This document shows positions 8,690 through 40,200 of a DNA stretch of 64,000 nucleotides, piece after piece. Made by a program: the position numbers and the translations under genes. Below the pieces are notes generated by a model. That model had not been told where the DNA came from, ran no database searches, and worked only from the letters and a program-made list of their open reading frames with translations. The DNA is from a phage. The DNA is taken from NCBI GenBank assembly GCA_024672315.1, contig GCA_024672315.1_4714.1. One strand, given 5' to 3'. Position 1 is the stretch's first letter. Every line of letters begins with the position of its first letter.

Positions 8690-11476
8690 TTATCTTACGT
8701 TATTGCTATTCTGCTGTTCGCTGAACCAACCGTACACCTTGAGATCGGTACCGTATTTCAATGCGATATACGCATTCAATGCAGCACAGAACAAAGACAC
8801 GAATGCCCATATCAGCGAAGGATCAACATCTTCCGTTACCACCGGGAGAGTATTATCCGGTTCCCACGATGGAGAACTGTCCATGAACGTCGTGTACCAT
8901 TCCCGCCGTTGTTCTTCAGTGGTAAAGTCGCTATGAGGTTCCAACGCTTCTTTTGCCAGACGTCGATATTCGAACACATACGTTGCGAAAGCCGATGAGT
9001 TACCAGATTCGCCTTCATAGTTCGGATCCACCGCACAACAGAGTTCTGTGGAATCTAACAAAGCAATCGCTTGTGTGATGCTGTCGGCAGTGCCTGCACC
9101 ATAGAGCTCGATAGACCGCGAAAGCTTTTCACAGAACGTATTTAACGCGGCAGGATTGGACACCTGAAGGTCAAGGCCTAATGTCCACGGATAGTTACTG
9201 AACACGCCCGTAAACCGCGGCAGGACACCCAACAGATGTTGTCCGATTACAGCACGGTTATAAACAGCCCGGTTATAGACTTGAAACGCAGCCTCCAAGG
9301 CTTGGTTATAATGACGACGAAGTTCGTCACGCGAGTTGCGGAATCTGTTTGCCGCAAGACTCGTGGCTGCGACGCTACAAACATCGTAATTGGTGGACGA
9401 GAGCACAGTTTCGTTAAGATCGAACGATTCCTGTTTCAACGATCCGCTAACCGCTGCTGCTTCGCTGTTTGCTTTATCGACAACTGTACTCAAAGCGTTG
9501 ATGTAACGCTTAGCCCGGACTTCCAGCCATTGTGCGATACCGAGAACATCCACAGCGGCTTTAGCAAGGTCACGTGCGTTCACGATTTCGTTCTTCAATG
9601 CCCCTAAACCTTTATTCTCAGGCGAAGAGGCTTGTTGACGAATCATGCTGTTCAACATGGTAAGCAGATTATCCAACTCATGTCCACTGACCTTGTTACG
9701 TGCATCGGTAACTGGTCCTTGCAGGAATTTACGACAACCATCGTTGTATCGAATCAGTTTGTCCACATCGATAGATTCGTTCGTGGATTCCTTGAACTGA
9801 TCCTTCAATTCTTCACGGTAGTCATGGATTTCACTTGCGAGATTATCGATAGTGATACCATCGTGTCCAAGAAGAACTTTATTGAAGTTACCTTTCTCGA
9901 ATGCAAGAGCAAGACCTTCACGAATCTTAGCGAGTTTATCCTGATCGAGTTCGCGACCGTTCGATAGCTCTTTCACTTCCGAGCTGATTAGTGCCGCAAC
10001 GTTACCCAGATTGTCGGTAACGCCTTTGAATGTTCCCGACCAGATCGTTCCTGCTTCAGCATATTTCGCAATGGTCTGAATACCGACGGTGTGCAGCGAC
10101 GCTAAACGTTTCTTCGTGCCTTCGGTAAGCAGAGCGTCTTTAGCTCGCGTAAGCTGGCTGTTATTCGCTTCCGCCTGCTGAATCGCCGCTTTCGCACTTC
10201 CATTACGCCAGCTCTTAACCAGCCAATCGACCAAACGTTTTAGGATGTTGACGGTGTATTCCATCGTCCGCCGTAACGTTTCCCACGCGCTTTCTGCGGT
10301 ATAGATGCCGTACCCTTCCTGCACGAGATCGGTACGTGTGTATCCGTCGGCCGCTTCGATTTCTTCTTGCGTTTTATCCCAAAGCTCTTCGCTACGAACA
10401 GCAGTAGCGGTTTCAGATACCGACATAACAAGCTCAGCAACAGCTTCAGCGTAAGTCAGTACGGTACGCACACATTGCACTAACATGCGCTGGTAAACGA
10501 TACGTGCGTTTTGCAGACGTGCGATAACCGCTAAATAACCGATGTTATCAAGATTTTCATCGGTTTGAGCAGATTCAACGCGTTCTAACAGTTGTTTAAC
10601 TAGCGCCGCTGTTTCTGGGTAATCGTTCACGACGTCACGCATGATTCGTGATGCGAAAACCGCAGTACCTAAAACGGTGAGAAGTGTTTTACCGTCCCAT
10701 TCTTTCGGTGCCGCTACCGATTCAGCAGGGATGAGATTTCCCGCTTGGTCGAAGTACGGCATAAGGACATTGATATCAGTCGACGGAACAGCAGTAATTG
10801 CGTTGTACTCTTCATCCACGCCATCGTTGCCAGACGGTTGTAATGCGAGCGCTTGTTCGAGGATTTTGCGGTCAACAGCGTAAAGCGCCGACAGAGCCTG
10901 TGTTACCGCAACCAGATCAACGATCGGCGACCAGAGCTGTGCGAGCTTACCTTCGTATTTCTGTACAGCGATAGCAAGGTCTTCTTTTACGTCTGGATGA
11001 TCGATCAAACCACCCAATGTTTCATGGATGGCAGAAAAACGTTCAGAATGCGCTTGAGTCAATGCGGTAAAATCGTCAACGTACGACGCATTTTCTTCAA
11101 GACGCGTAAGTTCCTGCTCCAGAAGATCTTTTACTTGCGTGGCGGATGCGTTTCTCAACTGTTCCCCGATAATCGCGATGGCTTTATCGACAACACGGCA
11201 GGCTTCATTGAAACCGGTCGTTGAAGGTAACTCGGTCCATAATGCCAGCGGCTTACCTTCCATTGCGTCAGGAAGGGAATATGACAGCATTGCTAGTTGT
11301 TGACGTGATACCTGTTTGTCACGATGTAATGTTTCTTTCAACGCCAGAAGCTCATCAAGACCCACGCTGCTAGGGATCGTGGGATGTGATACGGCGTTGA
11401 TATTTCCTGTCAATGACTCAAGAACCAATAAACCATTTTCAGCGGAAGATAACCCTGCTTTAAGGTATTTGTTCAT
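8690..11476 (-). CDS. hypothetical large alpha-helical protein (928 aa)
   Basis: Long ORF, helical/coiled-coil-like composition; convergent with 5634..8627; GGAG RBS sits directly 3' of a perfect 12-bp hairpin. Confidence 0.85.
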   Translation of the reverse strand: MNKYLKAGLSSAENGLLVLESLTGNINAVSHPTIPSSVGLDELLALKETLHRDKQVSRQQLAMLSYSLPDAMEGKPLALWTELPSTTGFNEACRVVDKAIAIIGEQLRNASATQVKDLLEQELTRLEENASYVDDFTALTQAHSERFSAIHETLGGLIDHPDVKEDLAIAVQKYEGKLAQLWSPIVDLVAVTQALSALYAVDRKILEQALALQPSGNDGVDEEYNAITAVPSTDINVLMPYFDQAGNLIPAESVAAPKEWDGKTLLTVLGTAVFASRIMRDVVNDYPETAALVKQLLERVESAQTDENLDNIGYLAVIARLQNARIVYQRMLVQCVRTVLTYAEAVAELVMSVSETATAVRSEELWDKTQEEIEAADGYTRTDLVQEGYGIYTAESAWETLRRTMEYTVNILKRLVDWLVKSWRNGSAKAAIQQAEANNSQLTRAKDALLTEGTKKRLASLHTVGIQTIAKYAEAGTIWSGTFKGVTDNLGNVAALISSEVKELSNGRELDQDKLAKIREGLALAFEKGNFNKVLLGHDGITIDNLASEIHDYREELKDQFKESTNESIDVDKLIRYNDGCRKFLQGPVTDARNKVSGHELDNLLTMLNSMIRQQASSPENKGLGALKNEIVNARDLAKAAVDVLGIAQWLEVRAKRYINALSTVVDKANSEAAAVSGSLKQESFDLNETVLSSTNYDVCSVAATSLAANRFRNSRDELRRHYNQALEAAFQVYNRAVYNRAVIGQHLLGVLPRFTGVFSNYPWTLGLDLQVSNPAALNTFCEKLSRSIELYGAGTADSITQAIALLDSTELCCAVDPNYEGESGNSSAFATYVFEYRRLAKEALEPHSDFTTEEQRREWYTTFMDSSPSWEPDNTLPVVTEDVDPSLIWAFVSLFCAALNAYIALKYGTDLKVYGWFSEQQNSNNVR

Positions 11477-21074: not shown

Positions 21075-21473
21075 TTATGCTTCGCAATCAGCTGAAGGCG
21101 TCGCGCCTTTCTTACCAGCGATACGCCAAATCCGACACGCTGGGTAATGGTTAACCTCTAGAGAGCAAGGAATGTTATATTTCTCTTCCAGCGCATAAAG
21201 ACATTTCGTTAGCTGCTCCAGCGCGTTCTCGTCGTGTCGTAACGCGTGGTGGCCTAATCGATGTTGGTCGTTCTTTATATACGCCTCGAAGAGAACATGT
21301 TGGCGATGTACGCTGACGTTTACAGCCTCGAGTATAGCTTGGTCGAGCATACGACTAAAGCACATCAACGAGTCAGATACGTTTTCTCGCTTAACCAGAT
21401 CGATCATGGTGGGAATATACGAATGGTCGATGTTATCGATGACCGCTTTAGCGACGGAATCAGCAACGTTCAT
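21075..21473 (-). CDS. hypothetical protein, paralog of 21510..21905
   Basis: ORF track starts at 21503; ATG at residue 11 (MNVADSVAKAVIDNIDH...) aligns with the N-terminus of the neighbouring paralog (MSIVESIVKAVNDNIDH...); shared C-terminal EEKYNIP(C/F)SLEVN. Confidence 0.7.
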   Translation of the reverse strand: MNVADSVAKAVIDNIDHSYIPTMIDLVKRENVSDSLMCFSRMLDQAILEAVNVSVHRQHVLFEAYIKNDQHRLGHHALRHDENALEQLTKCLYALEEKYNIPCSLEVNHYPACRIWRIAGKKGATPSADCEA

Positions 21474-21509
21474 CTTTTTAATCCCTAGTTTGTTATTGAT
21501 CACGTATAT

Positions 21510-21905
21510 TTACTCTTTGACGTCAGTTGTCGTTTCGACATGCTTCTCACTACTGACGTACCAGAGCAGGTACGTTGGGAAAAGATTGACCTCTAAGCTA
21601 AATGGGATATTGTATTTCTCTTCCATTTTACAGAGATGTTCTTTAAGTAAATTTCTCGCGTCTCTGTCACCACGAACAGAGTGCCAGTCTAGTTCTTTGT
21701 TCTCCTTTACCAGGACCTCTACGATGATACGTTGCTCGTGAACCTCGGTTTTCACAGTGAAAAGTAAATCGCTGCTATCAAAACGGGTAAAACGAATGTA
21801 TGAACCAGGTGTTTTTTCTTGTTTGATAATATCGATCATGGTAGAAATGCGCGGATGATCGATGTTGTCGTTAACAGCTTTAACGATGGATTCTACAATG
21901 CTCAT
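21510..21905 (-). CDS. hypothetical protein, paralog of 21075..21473
   Basis: 131-aa ORF; clear similarity to the adjacent gene. Confidence 0.75.
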   Translation of the reverse strand: MSIVESIVKAVNDNIDHPRISTMIDIIKQEKTPGSYIRFTRFDSSDLLFTVKTEVHEQRIIVEVLVKENKELDWHSVRGDRDARNLLKEHLCKMEEKYNIPFSLEVNLFPTYLLWYVSSEKHVETTTDVKE

Positions 21906-21938
21906 TTTTTTATCCTTAATGTTATCGATTTGTAAATA

Positions 21939-22706
21939 TTACTTATTTTTGCTTTCTTTATAGACAGTTGTTACCCACGATGGGAAAGCCGGATGGAAAC
22001 AGAGCGTGAACGTAACTGTCGTATCGTATTTAAACGCACAGTTCACTAACCGGGTATCGAACGTTTTCCTTAGACCATCATCATCGTTATCGATGACAGC
22101 CATATCTCTTAATATCCCAAGCACGTTAACGCCGTCGAGTGTCTGGGTTACAACAAGTCGTCGTAATGGCCCGCATGTATAGTTACGTACAAATCCTTTC
22201 TTCGGGTCCGATACCCTGTTTAACGCATCGTGATTTTTGATGAATTCATCGGCGATCCAATAGATTTGTTCCCTTGCTTTATCGGGATCGTATTCTGCTA
22301 ATAGTTCCTTCGTGTCGAACGTTATCACGTTATTATCATTCGATTCAGAAGGGAAACATAAAACTAAACGAACAGGGTATTCGTATTGATCTGTTCTTGT
22401 TTCGAAAGCATTAGCTAAACACGGCTTGTATGCCTTTGCGTCGACATTGTCCAAACATGGATGCAATAATGCGTGAATAACGGCACCATCGTCAGTTAAA
22501 CCGAATTCCAGAAATTGTACCCTATCAGTATCCGCTACGGTTTTCTGAAGATACGCTTTACCGTTTACGATATCGGTATCCCACATATCGTCGTTTAACG
22601 ATTCTTCAAACTTATCGAATATATGGTTTACGAGATTGACGAGTTCATCAATACGGCACTGTTGGTTGAATTCGATTAATCGCTGAACTTTATCTTTGAT
22701 AGACAT
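21939..22706 (-). CDS. hypothetical protein
   Basis: 255-aa ORF; contains an EYDPD segment like the small paralog family downstream. Confidence 0.75.
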   Translation of the reverse strand: MSIKDKVQRLIEFNQQCRIDELVNLVNHIFDKFEESLNDDMWDTDIVNGKAYLQKTVADTDRVQFLEFGLTDDGAVIHALLHPCLDNVDAKAYKPCLANAFETRTDQYEYPVRLVLCFPSESNDNNVITFDTKELLAEYDPDKAREQIYWIADEFIKNHDALNRVSDPKKGFVRNYTCGPLRRLVVTQTLDGVNVLGILRDMAVIDNDDDGLRKTFDTRLVNCAFKYDTTVTFTLCFHPAFPSWVTTVYKESKNK

Positions 22707-22708
22707 GA

Positions 22709-23167
22709 TTACCCCTTAGCTCCTTCTTCGTCTGGAGAGTATTCCATCGTGTAGAATTCATAACCGTCGGAAAACTTGAGTGTTAATGTAATAGGGAAAT
22801 CGCACGGCATAGCTGATTTCGTAAATGCGTTATTAGCAACATCCGCCAACCGACGTATAGCATCAACCCCGCTGACGCTGAATGGTAGTTGTATGTTGAT
22901 AAGGATACGATGCTTGTAAACATAGAAAACAACGGTACTGTCAAGATAAACGCTATGAAACGGTATTGTTGGGATGCGTTCCACGATGGTAAAATACGTG
23001 CCGTCATTATCGCTATGTCCCATCGACCAAATATCGGATTTACGTAGATTTTGTTTGAGGGATTCGATACTTCGAGTGACGGTCTCAGCAACAGGCGTGA
23101 CGTAAGTGTCTCTATGCGAGTCGAAAAGTTCGTTGACGTTAGATTCGAATGAATACATTGTTGCCAT
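22709..23167 (-). CDS. hypothetical small acidic protein, paralog family member
   Basis: 152 aa; shares QLPFSV(S/N)G ... (F/L)T(M/L)EY(S/E)PD with 23167..23628. Confidence 0.75.
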   Translation of the reverse strand: MATMYSFESNVNELFDSHRDTYVTPVAETVTRSIESLKQNLRKSDIWSMGHSDNDGTYFTIVERIPTIPFHSVYLDSTVVFYVYKHRILINIQLPFSVSGVDAIRRLADVANNAFTKSAMPCDFPITLTLKFSDGYEFYTMEYSPDEEGAKG

Positions 23168-23628
23168 TATTCTACCTCTTTCTTCATCTTCATCGGAACA
23201 GAGAGTGCTGTTATCTCTGTTCCATTATCCGGTTCATACTCCAATGTAACGAGATTGCAGCCATCCGATAATTCATAATCGATCGCTAGGGGGAACGAGA
23301 TACCGTGCGACTTTATGCATTTACCAAATGTCTCGTTGGCTGTATACATTAGAAGTTGCTTTGCGGCAAGCCCGTTTACGCTGAAAGGTAATTGTGCTGT
23401 CGCAGCGATACGATTATTGTAAACTCTGATATCGGTGATATCTACAATCGTAGCATTGCCGTGTTGTGTTGTTGGAACGGATAGGTTGTAGAAGTAAGGT
23501 TCGGAGTCGGAATCGGACTCATTAAATAATTCCCAGCATCCGTCCTCCTGCAATCTTACCTCGAGTATTTCAAAGCTTTTAATTATCGATTCTACCAGCT
23601 GCTCACCGTAAGAATCCCACGTCGTCAT
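23167..23628 (-). CDS. hypothetical small acidic protein, paralog family member
   Basis: 153 aa; paralog of 22709..23167; stop and start overlap by 1 nt (TAATG). Confidence 0.75.
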   Translation of the reverse strand: MTTWDSYGEQLVESIIKSFEILEVRLQEDGCWELFNESDSDSEPYFYNLSVPTTQHGNATIVDITDIRVYNNRIAATAQLPFSVNGLAAKQLLMYTANETFGKCIKSHGISFPLAIDYELSDGCNLVTLEYEPDNGTEITALSVPMKMKKEVE

Positions 23629-23699
23629 TTTTTAACACCTTCGACACCTTTTAACCGATACGTGTCCCACCTAACAAGGGACACGATATCGTCGATTAA

Positions 23700-24194
23700 T
23701 TACTCTTCTGTGTTTTCATTGTCAGGATCGTAGTGGAATTCGAACAGCCCTGAACCGTCGTGTCCGTTGATTGTTAGTATAACTGGCATATCGAATCCTC
23801 GGACGCGCGAATGAAAACACTGTGCTAATTTTAGTTTGGCGTATGCCGCTATTTCATTGACGGCAATACACGACTCACCTGTTATACTCAGTATAACGTC
23901 GATACTAACAATGTTGTCGTGCAACGCAAAACGCCAGCGATCGATACGATTATTATCTTTAGCAGCTGTCTCGTTTACGAGATAGACTTTATCGTCAACC
24001 GACAAAGCAGGTCTCCAGCAACTGTTGTTCCTTAAATTCGCCTCGAATCGCAGCATCGTTGTGTCGATAATATCCCAACATGCAACTAGTACGGTATTGG
24101 GCACTAAATTGAGAAGAGCTGATACCCTATCCTTTATTTTAAGTGCTTCCGCAGGACGCCCGCAAATACCATGCATTTCAACTTTCTTATCCAT
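23700..24194 (-). CDS. hypothetical small acidic protein, probable paralog family member
   Basis: ORF track starts at GTG 24200; ATG at residue 3 has GAGGTG RBS; C-terminal ..FEFHYDPDNE resembles the family. Confidence 0.7.
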   Translation of the reverse strand: MDKKVEMHGICGRPAEALKIKDRVSALLNLVPNTVLVACWDIIDTTMLRFEANLRNNSCWRPALSVDDKVYLVNETAAKDNNRIDRWRFALHDNIVSIDVILSITGESCIAVNEIAAYAKLKLAQCFHSRVRGFDMPVILTINGHDGSGLFEFHYDPDNENTEE

Positions 24195-24237
24195 ATTCAC
24201 CTCTTTTTTAATCTAAATGTTAGTTGGGATAGGGCGA

Positions 24238-29133: not shown

Positions 29134-29607
29134 ATGCCAGTTTCATCCAAACCAAGAAAAAAATCCGTAGGAAACCCTAAAGCTCAGGAAACAACAGCAA
29201 TTCGTTGGGACGAGTTACGCGAACCTATCGAAAACTGCGAATTGTTATTAGGCACCCTGGGTGCGGCTATTTACCAAGCGACGCAGCCCTGTCGTTTACG
29301 ATTAACCCAAAACAAACGTGATGAGTTCGTTGCGTTATCAACAAGTACGAATAAAGATCTGACCGAACTTCAAACCGAGTTGACGACGATCAAGAACTCC
29401 ATCACACCGATGTACGGTAAAGAAGTTGATGAACAAAGTATTCTGTTACAGTACAACTACGGGATGTCGTTAATGAACATCCTGGAACGCGCATCCGATA
29501 TTCTGCGTCCTGACGTTGCACGCCTGAGCCAACTGCGTGTTGAAGGGATGGAGAACCAGATCCGATTCGCTAACAGTGTTAAATCTCAAGGAGCCACCGA
29601 AGCATGA
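29134..29607 (+). CDS. hypothetical protein
   Basis: 157-aa ORF with AGGAG RBS; stop overlaps next start (ATGA at 29604-29607). Confidence 0.7.
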   Translation: MPVSSKPRKKSVGNPKAQETTAIRWDELREPIENCELLLGTLGAAIYQATQPCRLRLTQNKRDEFVALSTSTNKDLTELQTELTTIKNSITPMYGKEVDEQSILLQYNYGMSLMNILERASDILRPDVARLSQLRVEGMENQIRFANSVKSQGATEA

Positions 29608-31289
29608 GCGAACAAGAAAAAGAAGTCGTGACGAATCAGGAAGCCGTTGAGCGTTCAGAGTCGTCCGCTGAAACAACGATTCCGGCAAGTTCCGATCCTG
29701 TTGGTTCCGCACAGCAGGAAAGTAAAGACGAAGTAAACACTACTAAAGAAGATGTAGTGGCTCCAGAAGCAACCCGTGAAGAAGAACCGTCACATCCGCC
29801 GTTGGTCGATTTCTCGAAGGCAACGATACGTTTCCAATGCGAAGACATTCGTCCTAAGAGTCCGAAGAAAACAAAACGCCAGCCGCTGGTGTTACCGCTG
29901 TATTCTCCGCGTGTACAGACAACGTATTACCGGGAATACATCAACGAAGCAATGGATACCGTACAAGCCATTGTCGCTCAACGCGGTAAACCGACAGACG
30001 AACAGTTTGATAAATTCAGTAAAGCGGTGGTGCAATCGGTTGCTGATGGTCAATACCATCCGCGTGGTCCAGCTCACGATCGCGCGTTGGAACGTAAGGG
30101 CAGTCAGTGGACTAACGTACCCGTAGACTCATCGGGTGTTGGTCGCGTTATTCCAGGCATTCCGCAACCGAACCATATTCCTGATGATGTCGAAGCGCCG
30201 CTGACAGGAACCGATGCGATCTATTTTGCTATCCGTAATACGAAATCAGGCGCACCTGCGGTAATGCCGTTATGGCATAGCGGTATTAAGCTGCAGTTCA
30301 ATCCGCCGTCAAATGAACGTGTTGCTATTATGCACGAACGTATTGCACGCGATAAAATCCTGGGTGGACGTGATAGCACCGGTTTCCTGTTTTCGGCAAC
30401 CTCGATTATCACCATGAAGCATGCTATCGAATTAGCATTAGAATGCTGTTACATGGCCAACGTACCGAACCTGGATATCCAGCGTTTGAAAGACATTATT
30501 CCGGTTACCGATGTTCCGGCGTTGTTGTTGAACGTGCTGGTAACCATGTACCCGTACGGATATCCTTACGTACAGACCTGCTATCAGAATCCAGAAACCT
30601 GCGACTATCGTGTCGAAGATACCGTAAGCTTTGCGAAACTCTATCAAGTTGACAACAGCGCAATTACCAAACGTATGCGACAGATCATGACCGAAGGTCC
30701 GGTCATGACCGATGAACTTTTGCGTGAGTATGCAAACGAGCTGGGTGAAACGAACTCCCGTACGCTGGATCTGTCCGACAACGGTTCTGTTATCATTGAA
30801 CTCGAAGTACCGAAGATCTCACGACAAATCGCCATGGGTGAACGTTGGTTAAGCGATACGCTGGAAGATCTGCGTGATATTCTATCGCGTCCGTCAATGA
30901 CCGAAGAAGAACGTGATCGTGTTATTCGTGAACGTCAGTTCTATAGCTGGATGCGTCAGTATGATGCGTGGATCAAATCTATGCATGTATCGGTAAACGG
31001 TACTATGCGTCGTGTAAGCGATGCAGATACGGCAACGGTATTAGCGCAGCTGTCTCGTGACAGCGACCTTCGTGAACGTTATATCGATGGGTTGATGCAA
31101 TTCATCGGTGATTCGACGATTGCGCTCGCAGCAATGCCTGCCTGGAAATGTCCGAAATGTAATGCCGATATTGCTGACAATCTGCGTGACCAGAAATACT
31201 ACGATCTGATTGCTTTGGATGTACCCCAGCTTTTTTTTACCCTAAACTCCGTCCAATCTCTTCAGGAGGGGATGGACGCGGTATTCTAA
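29604..31289 (+). CDS. hypothetical protein (561 aa), acidic N-terminus
   Basis: Long ORF; contains a T8 run at 31231..31238 forming a T_TTT_TTT heptamer in the zero frame 17 codons before its stop. Confidence 0.8.
   Translation: MSEQEKEVVTNQEAVERSESSAETTIPASSDPVGSAQQESKDEVNTTKEDVVAPEATREEEPSHPPLVDFSKATIRFQCEDIRPKSPKKTKRQPLVLPLYSPRVQTTYYREYINEAMDTVQAIVAQRGKPTDEQFDKFSKAVVQSVADGQYHPRGPAHDRALERKGSQWTNVPVDSSGVGRVIPGIPQPNHIPDDVEAPLTGTDAIYFAIRNTKSGAPAVMPLWHSGIKLQFNPPSNERVAIMHERIARDKILGGRDSTGFLFSATSIITMKHAIELALECCYMANVPNLDIQRLKDIIPVTDVPALLLNVLVTMYPYGYPYVQTCYQNPETCDYRVEDTVSFAKLYQVDNSAITKRMRQIMTEGPVMTDELLREYANELGETNSRTLDLSDNGSVIIELEVPKISRQIAMGERWLSDTLEDLRDILSRPSMTEEERDRVIRERQFYSWMRQYDAWIKSMHVSVNGTMRRVSDADTATVLAQLSRDSDLRERYIDGLMQFIGDSTIALAAMPAWKCPKCNADIADNLRDQKYYDLIALDVPQLFFTLNSVQSLQEGMDAVF
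31232..31238 (+). other. candidate -1 ribosomal frameshift slippery heptamer
   Basis: T_TTT_TTT in the zero frame of 29604..31289 (codons CTT TTT TTT at 31230-31238); -1 frame is open from 31190 to 31711. Confidence 0.35.
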
Positions 31290-31351
31290 TCGATCCGCGA
31301 TACGGGTTACACGACGGACAACTTGTTCGTAATGATGAAAAAATCTGGGAA

Positions 31352-31711
31352 TTGCTGTTAGCGCGTAAAGGCGACGGTGGCATGAAACTGAACATCGAAA
31401 TGGGTATTGCGTACGACACCATGTTTGGCTTGTACGACCGTGTTAACGAATGGACACCGTTGAAATGGGTTGCTCAGCATCCCGCTGAAGATCCCTGGGA
31501 CAGATTAGGGATTAAACCCTTAATCGAGGATTATGTTCGATTCGGTATTAAAGAGTTCATGACGCTGGATGCGTTTTTAAAAGCACCGTATCCTTACGCG
31601 CAAACGGTACTCAAAATCGCACAAGACGAACTGCGGAAACGTAGTGCGGTACTGGACGACGATGAGGACAAGTTACGACGAGAAGAAGAACGTTTACGAA
31701 ACGGAAAATAA
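31352..31711 (+). CDS. hypothetical protein; may be expressed as a -1 frameshift extension of 29604..31289
   Basis: ORF track start is TTG with no SD; the frame is open back to 31190 and is the -1 frame of the upstream gene; first ATG (31379) has only a weak, tightly spaced RBS. Confidence 0.45.
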   Translation: MLLARKGDGGMKLNIEMGIAYDTMFGLYDRVNEWTPLKWVAQHPAEDPWDRLGIKPLIEDYVRFGIKEFMTLDAFLKAPYPYAQTVLKIAQDELRKRSAVLDDDEDKLRREEERLRNGK

Positions 31712-31712
31712 A

Positions 31713-32222
31713 ATGGCGAGATTTACCAGTTTGATTGGGTTGGATATTTGGGAAACACCGGCTGACGTTCGGGTTATTCCTGTTAACACCGTCGGTGTGA
31801 TGGGACGTGGTCTTGCTAAGCAGGCAGCCGATCGTGTGCCCGGTCTTCTTGAAGCGTACCGTAAGCAATGTCAAGATGGGTTTAAGGTGGGCGAAGTCGT
31901 GTCATATCAGCATGGCGAGAACGATCAGCTCACCTACGTGTTGTTTCCATCAAAATCGGATTGGCGCGAAAAAACACGACGTGAGTATATCGTTAATGGT
32001 TTACTGGCGTTAAAAGCGTGGTTATTGGAGCTTCAGTTCGAAAGAGACGGCTTCTCATATCGGCGTCCGGCTGAACCGCTGATCGTTGCAATTCCTCCGG
32101 TTGGTTCTGGCTGCGGTAATATCGGCTACGGACAATCCGAAACAATCCAGCCTCAATGGGTACGCGCACAAATCAAACAGTATCTTGCCACCGTGCCAAA
32201 CGTTCATTTCTACTTGTTCTAA
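31713..32222 (+). CDS. macro domain protein (ADP-ribose binding/processing-like)
   Basis: ORF track starts at 31644 inside the previous gene; ATG at 31713 lies 2 nt after the upstream stop; motifs VIPVNTVGVMGRGLAKQ and IVAIPPVGSGCGNIGYG match the two glycine-rich macro-domain loops. Confidence 0.7.
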   Translation: MARFTSLIGLDIWETPADVRVIPVNTVGVMGRGLAKQAADRVPGLLEAYRKQCQDGFKVGEVVSYQHGENDQLTYVLFPSKSDWREKTRREYIVNGLLALKAWLLELQFERDGFSYRRPAEPLIVAIPPVGSGCGNIGYGQSETIQPQWVRAQIKQYLATVPNVHFYLF

Positions 32223-32232
32223 TGTAAAGGTA

Positions 32233-32277
32233 ACATAGCCCTCTCCCTTCCCTTACGGGTTGGGAGAGGGCTTATGC
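32233..32277. promoter_or_regulatory. conserved GC-rich intergenic stem-loop, family copy 3 (inverted orientation)
   Basis: acatag CCCTCTCCC ttcccttacgggtt GGGAGAGGG cttatgc; near-identical to the reverse complement of copy 1; between convergent macro-domain gene and 32288..32662. Confidence 0.8.
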
Positions 32278-33262: not shown

Positions 33263-35875
33263 TTAAGCGTCCGGCGTAAAATCAAAAGGAATGTCCGTAC
33301 GAATGATATCATAACGTTTTCCGAGGAAATAAAACTCTTCGGGAACCTGGCCTGGAATGATGCTATCACCGATGAACTGCGGATACGCCCAGATGTACTG
33401 AGTGAGTCCTTCGAACATATCCAGGTTATTTGCGTGGTTACCCATGATACGTTTCCAGAGTTCGCGTTTATACGGCGTTTTAACATCGAACCCATAAAGC
33501 GGTGCAAGATCTTCACCAGGAACAAATCCCAGGTAATAGTGGATCTGACTAACCGGGAAACCAAGCGTATCTCGCGGAATGGTGATCGCTTGCTCAGCCT
33601 TGGTGACATGCGTCTCAATAATCCAGTCATAGCACTCCGAATAGAACCGATCGAATTTCTCTGGATTATACCATGCTTTGGGAAGATTGAGTTTCTCCGT
33701 GAACGCATTCGACATGATCGTCGGTAAGAACGGAAGAATACCGGTTTTGATCTGCGTGTATTTCGATTTTACCCGGTTAACGAGATTCCAGCAACTGTAT
33801 CCTAATTGGTCGTTACAAAACTCAACGTAGAGATCGTAGTCACCGCCGGATAATGGGTTGTTGATGTCACCGATGTCTGCGGCATATTTGTTGGGATATC
33901 GGTTATTGAAAGCCAGTTTGGTTTGGTAATCGTAGATACACGGTTTGTTGTTCGCTGTATTGATCCACCACCAAGGTTCACCTACCTGCACACAAATGTC
34001 CTGGACATGAGGGTAGATGATATCAGCAAATGCGGTTAACACATCCCCTAACCACGCCATCGCCTGTTGGTTACACGGAGACAACAACCAAGACGGTGGC
34101 GTATATCCGGTTGCTGCGATGTTTCCTTCCCAATCCTGCTGCGCCCATTCGAACGGGCATGCGGTACTCATCAATTCGTAACTTAAACTGATAGTGACAG
34201 AGAAATGGTGTTTTGCAGCATATGCAGCGAAAGCTTCATGCCACGCGATACAGGGCGGATTTAATACATCCGTGGTGTTCACCAGTAACTTACCCGCACT
34301 TGGTGTCCAGACAGTATCGTAGAAATGCGACATGCCAACATAATGCACTAATTCATCCTGATATCCCGCATAAACCAGGTTCTCAAATACACGCTCCGGC
34401 GTGATGTTGTAATGGTCATCATAAGCGGTTATCGCACGAAGTTCGTGTGGCGTACAGTGGTGGCGATTAACCGTCATTTCCTGATACACCCCATCGATAG
34501 GAAGAATCTCGATGGTTAAGCCGAGGTCGATCGGTGTTTCCAGATAGGTCGTTTCAGTCGCATCTTCCTTATAATGTCGAGAACTCATGCTGAACATCAA
34601 CGACGTTACCGATTCGAGTTCGATAGGTTCGTCAGCATAGAACCCCGCCATTGCGTCGTTGAAATCGATCGTTACGATTGCGCTTCTACCGTCTTCAGAG
34701 ACATCTGTCGCATATCGGGTTAATGAGATATACTGACGGCTATCGTCTTTGTGTACAACGGTTAAAACCGGCGGGTGTTCGGTATCTGCAAAGTTACGCT
34801 GATCGCCAGTAAACGTGATCTTCGCTTTAAAGATCAAACCAAGCAACGACGTCATGGGATCATACGCAATACAGCCGTGATCCAGCGTATCCGTTGTCCG
34901 CCATTCTATCCCGACCAACCCGTTAGCGGTATGGCATCGCATATACGCATTAAGTACCATGTCTTCACTGACAACCGCGAAGTTCTCTGTTGACTGACCG
35001 TTGATAATCCAATACATCGGCTGCCAGAGGTTACGCGTACCTTTTGCGTAGCGGTAGGTTGGTGCGCCTTTAGGGTTGCCGTTATTGAGATGGAATACGG
35101 CAGTACCTTGATAATGGTCGTTCGTATTAATCGGAACACTGTAAGCATCACCGAGGTCCGTACGTTCCACCTTCGTGATTGTTGCGTTTTCAAATAACCT
35201 ACGTAGCGCGGGTAAACCGATATCTTCAGGCGCGTTTTCTCGACGAATCGCATCCGCGATGCGGTGGGCTAAGGCGGGGTAAATGACTTCACCCTGTTGT
35301 AGGTTTGCAAGACCTACAAAGCGATCGGGGCCGATACCAGCAATCAATAACTCGACACCACCCTTCGTTCTATCGTCGTTAAGATATTTCAGTCCGGTAA
35401 GGTCAAGATGCTGAATAAGCGACAACAGGTTGTAATTACGGTTCTCAACAGTTAGTACAAGATCGCCCGCCCAAACCAAACTTCCCTCATCCGCTGTTAC
35501 TTTAACGGATTGTCGGCCTGTTGTAGACGTTGTTGTCGTTTTATTTAATTGTCCTTGTAGGAAGTCGGTTGCGAGGTCAAAGGCAATACCGTAACGGTCA
35601 GCGACCGCTTGCATGATTTCACGTAACTGGGTATCTTCTTCAATGATAATCTTGACAGGTATTCCCAAGAACGCTTTAGCAAGGTCTCGTTTAACCAACG
35701 AGACGAATACGGATTTGTAGTATCGGCTTCCATCTTTCCCTTTAAAAAGAATGGAGGTTGTTTCGGGTGCCGATAGAACACGTGCAAATACAACATCGTC
35801 GGAAGTAAGAGAAAGTCCGTTTTTCTCGTTGACCAATCTTAGTATTTCATTTTGCGCGGTTTCATGTAACTTCAT
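33263..35875 (-). CDS. putative receptor-binding / tail-associated protein (870 aa) with shared N-terminal module
   Basis: N-terminal ~100 aa (..VFVSLVKRDLAKAFLGIPVKIIIEE..YGIAFDLATDF) is paralogous to the N-termini of 41064..41591 and 45408..46238; sits in the tail-fibre cluster. Confidence 0.6.
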   Translation of the reverse strand: MKLHETAQNEILRLVNEKNGLSLTSDDVVFARVLSAPETTSILFKGKDGSRYYKSVFVSLVKRDLAKAFLGIPVKIIIEEDTQLREIMQAVADRYGIAFDLATDFLQGQLNKTTTTSTTGRQSVKVTADEGSLVWAGDLVLTVENRNYNLLSLIQHLDLTGLKYLNDDRTKGGVELLIAGIGPDRFVGLANLQQGEVIYPALAHRIADAIRRENAPEDIGLPALRRLFENATITKVERTDLGDAYSVPINTNDHYQGTAVFHLNNGNPKGAPTYRYAKGTRNLWQPMYWIINGQSTENFAVVSEDMVLNAYMRCHTANGLVGIEWRTTDTLDHGCIAYDPMTSLLGLIFKAKITFTGDQRNFADTEHPPVLTVVHKDDSRQYISLTRYATDVSEDGRSAIVTIDFNDAMAGFYADEPIELESVTSLMFSMSSRHYKEDATETTYLETPIDLGLTIEILPIDGVYQEMTVNRHHCTPHELRAITAYDDHYNITPERVFENLVYAGYQDELVHYVGMSHFYDTVWTPSAGKLLVNTTDVLNPPCIAWHEAFAAYAAKHHFSVTISLSYELMSTACPFEWAQQDWEGNIAATGYTPPSWLLSPCNQQAMAWLGDVLTAFADIIYPHVQDICVQVGEPWWWINTANNKPCIYDYQTKLAFNNRYPNKYAADIGDINNPLSGGDYDLYVEFCNDQLGYSCWNLVNRVKSKYTQIKTGILPFLPTIMSNAFTEKLNLPKAWYNPEKFDRFYSECYDWIIETHVTKAEQAITIPRDTLGFPVSQIHYYLGFVPGEDLAPLYGFDVKTPYKRELWKRIMGNHANNLDMFEGLTQYIWAYPQFIGDSIIPGQVPEEFYFLGKRYDIIRTDIPFDFTPDA

Positions 35876-37223: not shown

Positions 37224-37277
37224 CGGATTTCCTTATGTGTTAACGGAAGTGATTTCCATAAGAATAATCGTCCGATG

Positions 37278-40200
37278 TTAATATCCCTGGTTTGTAGCTC
37301 CTGCTGTACCTGCGAACTTCAGCCATTGCCCTTCCGGCGACAATGCGCTCCGATAATGATACACTACAATCATATTTGTCAAACCGCTATAATCTGCTTT
37401 ATGTTGCGTAGTAATACGTATCGTATAATCCAACCCGTTAGGGAAGTTGAATACTTCAATGATCGTACCGGCGAGCTGGAGAGCACCGAACCCGGTGATT
37501 GTTCCTGTGCTTCCGGCGTTCATGCCCATCGCATCGCCGAATCCAATCCAGTAGCGTTTCCGAAACGCACCTTCGCTTTTCAGATAGTTGATGAAGTCAC
37601 TAAACGACATGTTCATACCACCAGATGAAAGCGTGGATGTTTTAATCGCCATGTTAGGGATATCGCTACTGGATGCTTTATATCCTAATTTCGTATCGAT
37701 TTCTGACTTCGTATACGTAGACAGATCCGCCGCAGTTAACGTGATATTCGCCGAACCATCGAACGCTTTCCCGTTGATCGTACGCGCAGTCCGCAACTTC
37801 GTTGCCGTTGCTGCGTTTCCTGAAGTATTCTGATTACCAGCGGTGTTGACACCTGGTAGGTTAATATTAGCGCTGCCGTCAAAAGACACTCCGCCTATTG
37901 TCCGGGCCGTCTTTAACTTGGTCGCTGTCGCCGCATTTCCTGTGGTATCTTGGTTACCTGTGGTATTAACACCAGGTAAGTTGATGTTTGCTGTACCGTT
38001 GAATGATACCCCACCTATCGTTCTTGCCGTTTGAAGCCTTGTCGCTGAAGCGGCATTACCCGTCGTGTTTTGGTTACCTGTTGCATTCACACCCGGGATA
38101 CTATCCTTAGATGTGTAAATCTGTGCCCATTCCGACCATTTCGCATCGGTTGTATCGCGACGTGAACGTAAATAAGCTGGAGCGTGCGCGCCCGAGGTAC
38201 CCGACCATCCAATGAGGATTTCACCTTCACCAACCGATGAAGCACCTTTAAGATGAACAATGTTACCGTAGGCTGTAGGGTATCCGTTATTGTACACTTC
38301 ATACATCTGAATACCCGTATTGCTGCCCTGGGTCGCATTAGCTAAAGCGGTGACCCGTCCCTTGGAAGCGAGCACGTTAATGCTAAAGCTAATATCAGTT
38401 GTACCGTCAAAGGCGACCCCATTAATCCTCCGCGCCGTTTGGAGTTTCGTGGCAGTAGCCGCATTACCAGAGGTACTCTGATTACCCGCTTTGTTCACAC
38501 CCGGTAAATCAATGTTGGCGGTCCCATCAAAGGACACACCCCCTATGGTTCTCGCCGTCCGAAGTTTTGTTGCTGAACCAGCGTTTCCGGAAGTGCTTTG
38601 ATTCCCCGACGCGTTGACACCCGGTAGGTTAATGCTCGCAGAACCATCAAAAGAAACTCCGCCGATCGTGATCGGTGTTTGCAGCTTCGTGGCTGTCGCA
38701 GCATTACCCGTCGTATTCTGATTGCCAACCGCATTAACGCCTGGTAATGCGATATCGGCCGTACCATCGAACGCAACACCACCGATTTTACGGGCGGTCT
38801 GTAGCTTGGTCGCTGTCGCCGCGTTGCCGCTGGTATTTTGCGTGCCCGCTTCATTTACGCCTGGTAAATCAATGTTCGCAGTACCGTCAAAAGAAACACC
38901 CCCGATGGTTCTCGCGGTCTGCAACTTCGTTGCACTTCCTGCGTTTCCGCTGGTGCTTTGATTTCCCGCTGCATTAACACCTGGTAGACTGATGCTGGCT
39001 GAACCATCGAAACTCACACCACCGATCGTAACAGCGGTTTTCAATTTCGTGGCGGTTGCTGCGTTACCGGTTGTATTTTGGTTGCCTGTCGCATTCACGC
39101 CAGGTAATGCAATATCCGCTGTTCCGTCAAAGGCAACGCCACCGATTTTACGTGCAGTTTGTAGCTTGGTTGCACTAGCAGCGTTACCGCTGGTATTCTG
39201 GGTGCCCGCTTTGTTAACACCGGGGAGATCGATGTTAGCAGAACCATCGAAGCTGACGCCACCTATCGTTCTTGCGGTAGCGAGTTTAGCTGCTGTGGCT
39301 GCATTATTACCCACTTTCAGCCAATCATCCCATGGACCATCCTGGCCGTTCCATGATGCCGTTAAACTACGTACGTAAATATTGCCGGTACGTACAGTGT
39401 AACGTTGCGTTCCACCGAATTGCCCGGTTGGGAGCACTTCAATGTAACCTGCGGCGTTTGCTTCAGGGAAATTGTGGGCGATGTCCGCGTTCGTTGTTAC
39501 TGGTTTAGACCAAATACCCACAGACGCTTCGACTGGGCCGAAGGTATTCAGATTTGCGTCTATCGCCATAGCGCCATTAAATTTCAGGTATGTCTCTGAC
39601 GATAACCCGATCGTTTTAGCAAACGCAGCTTTATCTACGATATCACTACCGTTATTCCCTGCTTGCAACGCCGTCTTAGCTGCCTTTATGGTTTCGGTCA
39701 ATCCAAGATACTGTAAGATCGCATCAACGCTTCCTTTGTTTAGCAGATTCAGACCTGTTGACGTTACGTTAGTTAGTCCGATTTGGTTCCGTCCAGTAAA
39801 ATAAGGGAGTTTATTCGCTTCTGTTGTTAGGTTAGACCACGCAGTCAACAACGCGTTCAAAGGCTGTTTACCCGCCAACGCATTGGTTACTGTCGTTGCG
39901 AAATTAGGATCGTTCCCTAAAGCTTGAGCCAGCTCATTAAGCGTATTTAGCGCTTCTGGAGACGAGTCGATCAGCGATGCGATAGCGCGCATCACAAATT
40001 CCGTGTTGGCAATCTGTCGACTGCTATCGTTCTCTGCAGCCGTAGGCGCTGCCGGGATACCGGTGAACACGGGGCTATTAAGATCTGCCTTGAGCGCGAT
40101 GAGACGTTTAAGTGCGTCGACATCGACTTTCAGGTTTTCCCACCCGATGAGAGAACCACCACTGCTGGCATGATAACGGTTATACCAGAAGTCACCGTTA

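What the first reader, a model, noticed from the sequence alone, without database searches (positions are those of the whole stretch)
31713..32222. Macro domain protein
The 169-aa product carries both glycine-rich macro-domain loops (VIPVNTVGVMGRGLAKQ and IVAIPPVGSGCGNIGYG), resembling the TARG1/DarG-type subfamily more than MacroD. A phage macro domain could reverse ADP-ribosylation of DNA or protein (for example against DarT-type defence toxins) or process NAD-derived metabolites. That role is inferred, not shown.
Basis: partly seen in the sequence, partly recalled or inferred. Interest (0 to 1): 0.55.

Follow-up and report, generated by a model that had tools for sequence, protein, structure and literature searches.

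The report
Known phage anti-DarT macrodomain (AdfM)

Summary
The 169-aa ORF at 31713-32222(+) is real and is a macrodomain. It passes Pfam's Macro threshold. Its best sequence and fold matches are the DarG antitoxin macrodomains of Thermus aquaticus and M. tuberculosis, then TARG1, with MacroD-type proteins far behind. Both residues that are catalytic in T. aquaticus DarG are present (N25, K81) and invariant among 14 relatives.

The window is a close relative of Escherichia jumbo phage Goslar (95.9% nt identity over 2.3 kb around the gene). The gene is the orthologue of Goslar gp83 (97% aa). Morgan et al. (Cell Rep 2026, PMC13309987) list gp83 among the chimallivirus AdfM proteins. AdfM is a stand-alone DarG2-like macrodomain, imported into the phage nucleus, that removes DarT2-made ADP-ribose from phage DNA. 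Those experiments were done on PhiKZ gp104 and PhiPA3 gp108, which is 33% identical to this protein over its full length.

The protein is not a DarG antitoxin proper. It lacks the DarT-binding C-terminal half, and no DarT-like gene was found among the seven neighbouring ORFs scanned.

Verdict: observation confirmed, interpretation supported (its anti-DarT option), novelty nil. Activity and localisation of the Goslar-type protein remain inferred by homology.

The parts
31713..32222 (+). CDS of the 169-aa stand-alone DarG2-like macrodomain. It is the orthologue of Goslar gp83 / AdfM.
   Evidence: ORF and translation. 97% aa identity to Goslar gp083. Macro/DarG profile hits. DarG-like fold.
31779..31820 (+). 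ADP-ribose-binding loop 1 (residues 23-36, PVNTVGVMGRGLAK). It includes the Asn25 codon at 31785-31787, which is equivalent to T. aquaticus DarG N22 and PhiKZ AdfM N23.
   Evidence: P23, V24, N25, G28, M30, G31, G33, L34 and A35 are invariant in 14 sequences. Aligned to DarG VNTVNTVGVMGKG. In PhiKZ gp104 the N23A mutation reduces activity.
31953..31955 (+). Lys81 codon, in FPSKSDW. It is equivalent to the catalytic Lys80 of T. aquaticus DarG and K78 of PhiKZ AdfM.
   Evidence: K81 and W84 are invariant. Aligned to FPTKKHW of 5m31. The active-site assignment comes from the Fig. 1C legend of PMC13309987.
32091..32132 (+). Glycine-rich loop 2 (residues 127-140, IPPVGSGCGNIGYG).
   Evidence: P128, G131, G133 and G135 are invariant. 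Aligned to DarG PPLGAGNGGL.
32237..32272 (.). GC-rich hairpin between the convergent AdfM gene (+) and the gp084 homologue (-). It is a likely bidirectional terminator.
   Evidence: RNA fold -37.6 kcal/mol, z -7.1, 0 of 200 shuffles as stable. Annotated as a terminator at the same place in Goslar. The simple terminator scan did not call it.
29134..31711 (+). Context only: three co-oriented upstream ORFs, the homologues of Goslar gp080, gp081 and gp082. Together with the macrodomain gene they form a four-gene + strand block between minus-strand blocks. Their function is unknown.
   Evidence: Same order in Goslar and in the distant relative L006. gp081 is 54% identical and gp082 43% identical between the window and L006. 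No Pfam family matches; only PHROGs of unknown function. The block is not conserved next to the macrodomain gene in PhiPA3, Noxifer or Psa21.

Best explanation
The gene encodes an AdfM-type anti-defence enzyme. This is a stand-alone macrodomain descended from the ADP-ribosyl-glycohydrolase half of the bacterial DarG2 antitoxin.

Proposed mechanism: when the Goslar-like phage infects a host carrying a DarTG2 toxin-antitoxin defence system, the toxin DarT2 attaches ADP-ribose from NAD+ to thymidine in TNTC motifs of single-stranded phage DNA. The phage protein binds the ADP-ribose through its two glycine-rich loops and hydrolyses the base-ribose bond using the Asn25/Lys81 active site. This restores unmodified DNA so that replication and packaging can proceed. 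By analogy with PhiKZ, PhiPA3 and Asesino, the protein is probably imported into the phage nucleus by the PicA pathway and acts there.

Shown here: macrodomain fold, DarG-type class, conserved catalytic residues, orthology to Goslar gp83, homology to PhiKZ gp104 and PhiPA3 gp108, absence of a DarT-binding domain, and no DarT-like gene among the neighbouring ORFs scanned.

Shown by others for orthologues only: DNA de-ADP-ribosylation, rescue from DarT2 toxicity, protection from DarTG2, and nuclear localisation.

Inferred for this protein: all enzymatic and cellular steps.
For: - Identity of the gene: the window is 95.9% nt identical to Goslar over 2.3 kb around the gene, and the protein is 97% identical to gp083. 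Goslar gp83 (YP_009820768.1) is listed among AdfM proteins in Fig. 1B of PMC13309987.
- Homology to tested proteins: full-length alignment to PhiPA3 gp108, 33% identity, E 5e-25.
- Experiments on orthologues: PhiKZ gp104 removes DarT2-made ADP-ribose from a DNA oligonucleotide, N23A weakens this, it rescues E. coli from DarT2, and deletion mutants of PhiKZ and PhiPA3 lose 3-6 logs of titre on DarTG2 hosts.
- DarG-type class: PADLOC DarG E 1.7e-22; NCBIfam antitoxin_DarG E 3.1e-23; profile against PDB gives DarG 5e-42 against TARG1 7e-14; Foldseek top hits are 5m3e, 5m31 and 5m3i.
- Active site: N25 and K81 are invariant.
- DarTG2 is active against coliphages: it restricts T5, and T4 needs its own macrodomain AdfM (Tk.4) to resist it.
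- The window shows no avoidance of the DarT2 target TNTC: 2355 observed against 2242 +/- 44 expected. The DNA is therefore a potential substrate.
Against: - No experiment has been reported on Goslar gp83 or this protein. In PMC13309987 it appears only in an alignment.
- It is more diverged from DarG than PhiKZ gp104 is: 82.6 against 137.8 bits on the NCBIfam DarG model.
- It carries two lineage-specific insertions of low model confidence, roughly residues 107-121 and 137-147, where 10-residue block pLDDT is about 60.
- A neighbour-joining tree did not resolve whether the Goslar-type and PhiKZ-type proteins are sister groups.
- The gene sits in a different genomic neighbourhood from the PhiKZ-type genes.
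- Macrodomains of this class (TARG1) can also act on protein and nucleic-acid-end ADP-ribosylation. This point rests on established knowledge of the family and was not tested here.
Confidence: 0.8

Rival explanations
1. It is a TARG1-like eraser of ADP-ribose on proteins or RNA rather than on DNA bases. It would counter a different ADP-ribosylating defence, or reverse modifications made by a phage ADP-ribosyltransferase.
For: TARG1 is the next-best structural and sequence relative after DarG. The Goslar-type protein is more diverged from DarG than PhiKZ AdfM is and has two specific insertions.
Against: DarG macrodomains score about 28 orders of magnitude better than TARG1. Orthologues act on DarT2-modified DNA and protect specifically against DarTG2. 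The paper states that these phage macrodomains align most closely with DarG2 macrodomains, which act on DNA.
Confidence: 0.1
2. It is a housekeeping processor of free ADP-ribose derivatives, that is an ADP-ribose-1''-phosphate phosphatase or O-acetyl-ADP-ribose deacetylase. Many database labels for the family imply this.
For: phrog_335 is labelled 'phosphatase'. Several phage homologues are annotated 'Appr-1-p processing' or 'phosphatase'. JGI names for P0008 and P0010 are 'O-acetyl-ADP-ribose deacetylase'. Yeast Poa1p appears among the fold hits.
Against: These labels are generic transfers from the Macro superfamily. Poa1p and MacroD-type entries score far below DarG. The catalytic Lys typical of the DarG/TARG1 class is conserved. 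A defence-specific phenotype has been shown for orthologues.
Confidence: 0.06
3. It is a non-catalytic binder or sponge of ADP-ribose-containing immune signals, such as Thoeris-type cyclic ADP-ribose isomers.
For: Macrodomains bind ADP-ribose, and phages are known to sequester NAD-derived signals. This rests on general knowledge; no tool result here supports it.
Against: The catalytic Asn and Lys are strictly conserved, which would not be expected of a mere binder. The orthologue is catalytic. Known sponges belong to other folds (general knowledge).
Confidence: 0.03

Closest known systems
AdfM of chimalliviruses (PhiKZ gp104, PhiPA3 gp108, Asesino gp217, Goslar gp83; Morgan et al., Cell Rep 2026, PMC13309987)
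   Same: Stand-alone DarG2-like macrodomain of about 160-170 aa in a nucleus-forming jumbo phage. 97% identical to Goslar gp83 and 33% identical over its full length to PhiPA3 gp108. Same MA(x)F N-terminus, the same catalytic Asn/Lys, and an insertion at the same place before the second glycine loop.
   Different: Only the Pseudomonas proteins were tested for activity and protection; localisation was tested for the two Pseudomonas phages and Asesino. The Goslar type has an additional insertion after the second glycine loop (residues about 137-147), a different C-terminus, and a different genomic neighbourhood.
DarG2 antitoxin of DarTG2 toxin-antitoxin systems (T. aquaticus 5m31/5m3e, M. tuberculosis 5m3i)
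   Same: Best sequence and fold match. The macrodomain has N22/K80 equivalents and both glycine loops.
   Different: The C-terminal DarT-binding domain is missing: the match covers profile positions 7-146 of 338, and 82.6 bits falls below the 250-bit family cut-off. No DarT-like gene is nearby. It is phage-encoded and acts as a counter-defence rather than as self-immunity.
T4 Tk.4, also named AdfM (HIDEN-SEQ preprint, 10.1101/2025.11.20.689424)
   Same: Coliphage stand-alone macrodomain that is required to resist DarTG2. It weakly matches the same DarG model.
   Different: Only 25% identity over 114 residues, E 3e-5. In the pairwise alignment a Tyr, not a Lys, lies opposite K81. The phage does not form a nucleus.
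Human TARG1/OARD1 (4j5q/4j5r/4j5s)
   Same: Same macrodomain class with a catalytic Lys. It is the second-best structural group (TM about 0.7 to 0.86).
   Different: 17-20% identity. It is a eukaryotic enzyme acting on protein (Glu) and nucleic-acid ADP-ribosylation (established knowledge).
AdfN (T4 gp30.3), the NADAR-type orphan antitoxin-like enzyme against DarTG1 (PMC11257639)
   Same: Same strategy: the phage carries only the enzymatic half of the antitoxin in order to erase DNA ADP-ribosylation.
   Different: Unrelated fold (NADAR), guanine-specific, and does not counter DarTG2.

Membership tests
Macro domain (Pfam PF01661) | Score at or above the Pfam gathering threshold | tested here: met
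   26 bits against a cut-off of 22, E 9.2e-6, residues 23-141.
Macro domain (Pfam PF01661) | Three-layer alpha/beta/alpha macro fold | tested here: met
   AlphaFold2 model with pLDDT 87.1 and pTM 0.85. 197 PDB matches at E<=0.001; the 50 listed are macrodomains or macrodomain-scaffold designs.
Macro domain (Pfam PF01661) | Two glycine-rich ADP-ribose-binding loops | tested here: met
   NTVGVMGRG and PPVGSGCG are present. G28, G31, G33, G131, G133 and G135 are invariant.
DarG/TARG1-class macrodomain | Closer to DarG/TARG1 than to other macrodomain classes | tested here: met
   Profile against PDB: DarG 5e-42, TARG1 7e-14, others 6e-8 or worse. Foldseek gives the same order.
DarG/TARG1-class macrodomain | Catalytic Lys (T. 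aquaticus DarG K80, TARG1 K84) and active-site Asn (DarG N22) | tested here: met
   K81 and N25 align to them and are invariant. The residue roles come from PMC13309987.
DarG antitoxin of a DarTG toxin-antitoxin system | C-terminal DarT-binding domain (full-length protein of about 330-340 aa) | tested here: not met
   The protein is 169 aa and matches only positions 7-146 of 338 (NCBIfam, 82.6 bits < 250) and 8-143 of 329 (PADLOC).
DarG antitoxin of a DarTG toxin-antitoxin system | Adjacent darT toxin gene | tested here: not met
   Seven neighbouring ORFs have no DarT/DUF4433 or other ADP-ribosyltransferase Pfam hit. All neighbours are phage genes shared with Goslar.
AdfM (anti-DarT factor macro) | Phage-encoded stand-alone DarG2-like macrodomain homologous to PhiKZ gp104 | tested here: met
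   97% identical to Goslar gp83, which the defining paper lists. 33% identity and E 5e-25 to PhiPA3 gp108. 32% identity to PhiKZ gp104 in the alignment.
AdfM (anti-DarT factor macro) | Removes DarT2-made ADP-ribose from DNA and protects the phage from DarTG2 | not testable with these tools
   Shown only for PhiKZ (activity and protection) and PhiPA3 (protection). This needs a biochemical assay and a phage deletion mutant.
AdfM (anti-DarT factor macro) | Imported into the phage nucleus (chimallivirus members) | not testable with these tools
   Shown for PhiKZ, PhiPA3 and Asesino. The PhiKZ recognition region, residues 77-95, corresponds to residues 80-98 here, but no sequence motif defines import.

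The most novel reading that the evidence does not exclude
The enterobacterial Goslar-type proteins (the window protein, P0003, P0004, P0006, P0007) may be a separate lineage of DarG-like macrodomains rather than simple orthologues of PhiKZ AdfM. They have two lineage-specific insertions, a distinct C-terminus, and a fixed place at the end of a conserved four-gene cassette. They might have a different or broader substrate range, or work together with the unknown cassette proteins gp080-gp082.
Probability: 0.1. Interest if true: 0.4.

Novelty: already known. Interest (0 to 1): 0.15.

Why it matters
AdfM shows that the protein shell of the phage nucleus is not a sufficient shield. A host enzyme that modifies DNA still reaches the genome, and the phage needs an imported repair enzyme to counter it. 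This matters for understanding jumbo-phage host range and for phage therapy. That case has already been made in print for PhiKZ and PhiPA3, and Goslar gp83 has been named as a family member.

This window adds only another near-identical copy. It also gives a corrected start codon and evidence that the gene's position in a four-gene block is conserved among Goslar-like phages.

Tried and rejected
- Conserved gene neighbourhood with PhiKZ-type phages. The window's gp081 and gp082 homologues show no significant similarity to PhiPA3 gp106 and gp107. The macrodomain genes of Noxifer and Psa21 sit among unrelated small ORFs. I rejected the idea of a family-wide operon partner. The cassette is conserved only among Goslar-like phages.
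- Phylogeny, to decide between common descent and independent acquisition of the Goslar-type and PhiKZ-type proteins. The first attempt timed out. The second, a neighbour-joining tree with 100 bootstraps, recovered each group but left the backbone unsupported, and some distances were saturated. The result is inconclusive.
- The shared insertion as a nuclear-import signal. The published PhiKZ recognition region is residues 77-95, which is the catalytic-Lys loop plus the start of the following helix, not the insertion. I dropped the idea.
- Avoidance of the DarT2 motif TNTC in the window. The motif is not depleted.
- Presence in complete E. coli genomes, for example as a prophage or carried element. 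None was found.
- The consensus promoter/terminator scan around the gene was uninformative. Chimallivirus promoters are not sigma-70 type.
- No tRNA genes in the window.

Full report
**Observation**

The + strand carries an ORF from the ATG at 31713 to the TAA ending at 32222, giving 169 aa.

The macrodomain assignment is statistically solid:
- Pfam Macro: 26 bits against a gathering score of 22.
- phmmer against PDB: E 4.5e-15 to the T. aquaticus DarG macrodomain (5m31/5m3e) and 1.8e-11 to the M. tuberculosis DarG macrodomain (5m3i).
- PADLOC DarG: E 1.7e-22.
- NCBIfam antitoxin_DarG: E 3.1e-23.
- An exhaustive HMMER scan of 1.84 billion representatives gave 2947 relatives at E<=0.001, mostly stand-alone proteins of about 150 aa.

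**Where the window comes from**

The 2.3 kb around the gene is 95.9% identical to Escherichia phage vB_EcoM_Goslar, and a 25-kb stretch is 94.3% identical over 89% of its length. Goslar is a nucleus-forming jumbo phage (chimallivirus).

The gene is the orthologue of Goslar gp083 (YP_009820768.1), at 97% aa identity. RefSeq already annotates gp083 as 'macro domain-containing protein, weakly similar to ORF104 of phiKZ'. tblastn finds homologues in 167 phage records, led by PhiKZ-like and PhiPA3-like Pseudomonas jumbo phages.

**Class of macrodomain**

A profile of the protein and 13 relatives (alignment A1) was searched against PDB:

| Target | E-value |
|---|---|
| T. aquaticus DarG macrodomain | 5e-42 |
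| M. tuberculosis DarG macrodomain | 1.6e-41 |
| Macrodomain of the T. africanus DarTG fusion | 1.6e-35 |
| Human TARG1 | about 1e-13 |
| All other macrodomain classes | 6e-8 or worse |

An AlphaFold2 model built from A1 is confident (pLDDT 87.1, pTM 0.85). Foldseek ranks the same structures in the same order: 5m3e TM 0.79/0.88, then 5m3i, 7omu, TARG1.

Asn25 and Lys81 align with T. aquaticus DarG N22 and K80 and with PhiKZ gp104 N23 and K78. They are invariant, as are the glycines of both loops. The residue roles are taken from PMC13309987.

**What it is not**

It is not a DarG antitoxin in the strict sense. The match covers only the N-terminal macrodomain of the DarG models (positions 7-146 of 338), so the score of 82.6 bits is far below the 250-bit family cut-off. 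The DarT-binding half is absent. None of seven neighbouring ORFs has a DarT-like or any ADP-ribosyltransferase domain.

**What is known**

Morgan et al. (Cell Rep 2026, PMC13309987) describe this family as AdfM, 'anti-DarT factor macro'. Their findings:
- PhiKZ gp104 removes DarT2-made ADP-ribose from a TNTC oligonucleotide.
- The N23A mutation weakens that activity.
- The protein fully rescues E. coli from DarT2 toxicity.
- Deletion mutants of PhiKZ and PhiPA3 lose 3-6 logs of titre on DarTG2-expressing hosts.
- Phage DNA becomes ADP-ribosylated without AdfM.
- GFP fusions from PhiKZ, PhiPA3 and Asesino localise to the phage nucleus.

Goslar gp83 is one of the sequences in their Fig. 1B alignment. 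No experiment on it is described there.

Import of PhiKZ gp104 depends on PicA and on a surface region at residues 77-95 (PMC11087766). PicA is also present and essential in Goslar.

Independently, a T4 transposon screen found that the macrodomain protein Tk.4 is needed to resist DarTG2 in E. coli, and it was also named AdfM (preprint 10.1101/2025.11.20.689424). The analogous NADAR-type enzyme AdfN counters DarTG1 only (PMC11257639).

**How this protein most likely works**

By homology, the protein hydrolyses thymidine-linked ADP-ribose placed by DarT2 on single-stranded phage DNA, probably inside the phage nucleus. This allows replication and packaging to proceed.

The protein aligns end to end with PhiPA3 gp108 (33% identity, E 5e-25). 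The window shows no depletion of the DarT2 target TNTC (2355 against 2242 +/- 44), so its DNA is a potential substrate.

Every biochemical and cellular step is inferred for this particular protein. I put the confidence at about 0.8.

Reasons for caution:
- The Goslar type is further from DarG than PhiKZ gp104 is (82.6 against 137.8 bits).
- It has two lineage-specific, low-confidence insertions.
- It sits in a different neighbourhood from the PhiKZ-type genes.
- A rough tree could not show that it is sister to the PhiKZ group.

- Start codon. The ATG at 31713 lies one base after the stop of the upstream gene. It is supported by the N-termini of PhiKZ, PhiPA3 and four metagenomic relatives, and by an in-frame TAG 9 nt upstream in the 47%-identical relative L006. 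The Goslar RefSeq start, 51 nt upstream, is probably wrong.
- Conserved cassette. In L006 the same four + strand genes occur in the same order as in the window and Goslar: 150 aa, 536 aa, 119 aa, then the macrodomain. They are 54% and 43% identical for gp081 and gp082 respectively. Their function is unknown.
- Terminator. A strong hairpin at 32237-32272 (z -7.1) closes the block.

**Verdict**

The feature belongs to a family that is already described, and its near-identical Goslar orthologue is named in the defining paper. Novelty: already known. Interest is low. The only residual value is that the Goslar-type lineage has not itself been tested.

Noticed in passing
window 21083-23722: About 2.1 kb here has no counterpart in Goslar. 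It carries extra members of a tandem family of small minus-strand ORFs. 21075-21503 and 21510-21905 are 38% identical (E 2e-31). 22709-23167 and 23167-23628 are 31% identical (E 9e-18). 23700-24200 is related more weakly. Function unknown.
   Followed up: partly
window 31352-31711 (+): The gp082 homologue probably starts at the TTG at 31352 (119 aa) rather than the ATG at 31382 annotated in Goslar (109 aa). The longer form aligns from residue 2 with the 119-aa homologue in L006 (43% identity, E 3e-34).
   Followed up: partly
window 31662-31712 and Goslar NC_048170.1 92868-92918: The RefSeq start of Goslar gp083 (186 aa) overlaps gp082 by 50 nt and is probably 51 nt too far upstream.
   Followed up: yes
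window 33263-35875 (-): This 870-aa ORF is 'hypothetical' in Goslar (gp086). It matches Pfam PF23845 (non-contractile tail sheath protein TIM barrel, E 3.8e-85), DUF7941 (E 1.7e-41) and NCTSP_N (E 1.7e-10).
   Followed up: no
window 29604-31289 (+): A 561-aa protein (gp081 homologue) is conserved at 54% identity in L006 and matches phrog_4585 (E 3e-67). It has a C-terminal CPKC motif, no Pfam family and no known function.
   Followed up: partly
P0001 (NCBI record; 99% identical to the window protein): The closest database protein comes from an 809-bp contig of a Salmonella enterica serovar Muenchen assembly. This suggests Goslar-like phage DNA in a Salmonella isolate's sequencing data. No match was found in complete E. 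coli genomes.
   Followed up: no
L007 6926-7390 (-) (T4 tk.4): T4's own AdfM (Tk.4) is only 25% identical to the window protein. In the pairwise alignment it has FNLY where this protein has FPSK, so no Lys lies opposite K81. That is a single BLAST alignment and has not been checked structurally.
   Followed up: no
window 10319-11178 and 37260-37888: These stretches have no or weak megablast match to Goslar within otherwise 93-96% identical DNA. The second lies in the tail-fibre/tail-fibre-assembly region, which may indicate a host-range difference.
   Followed up: no
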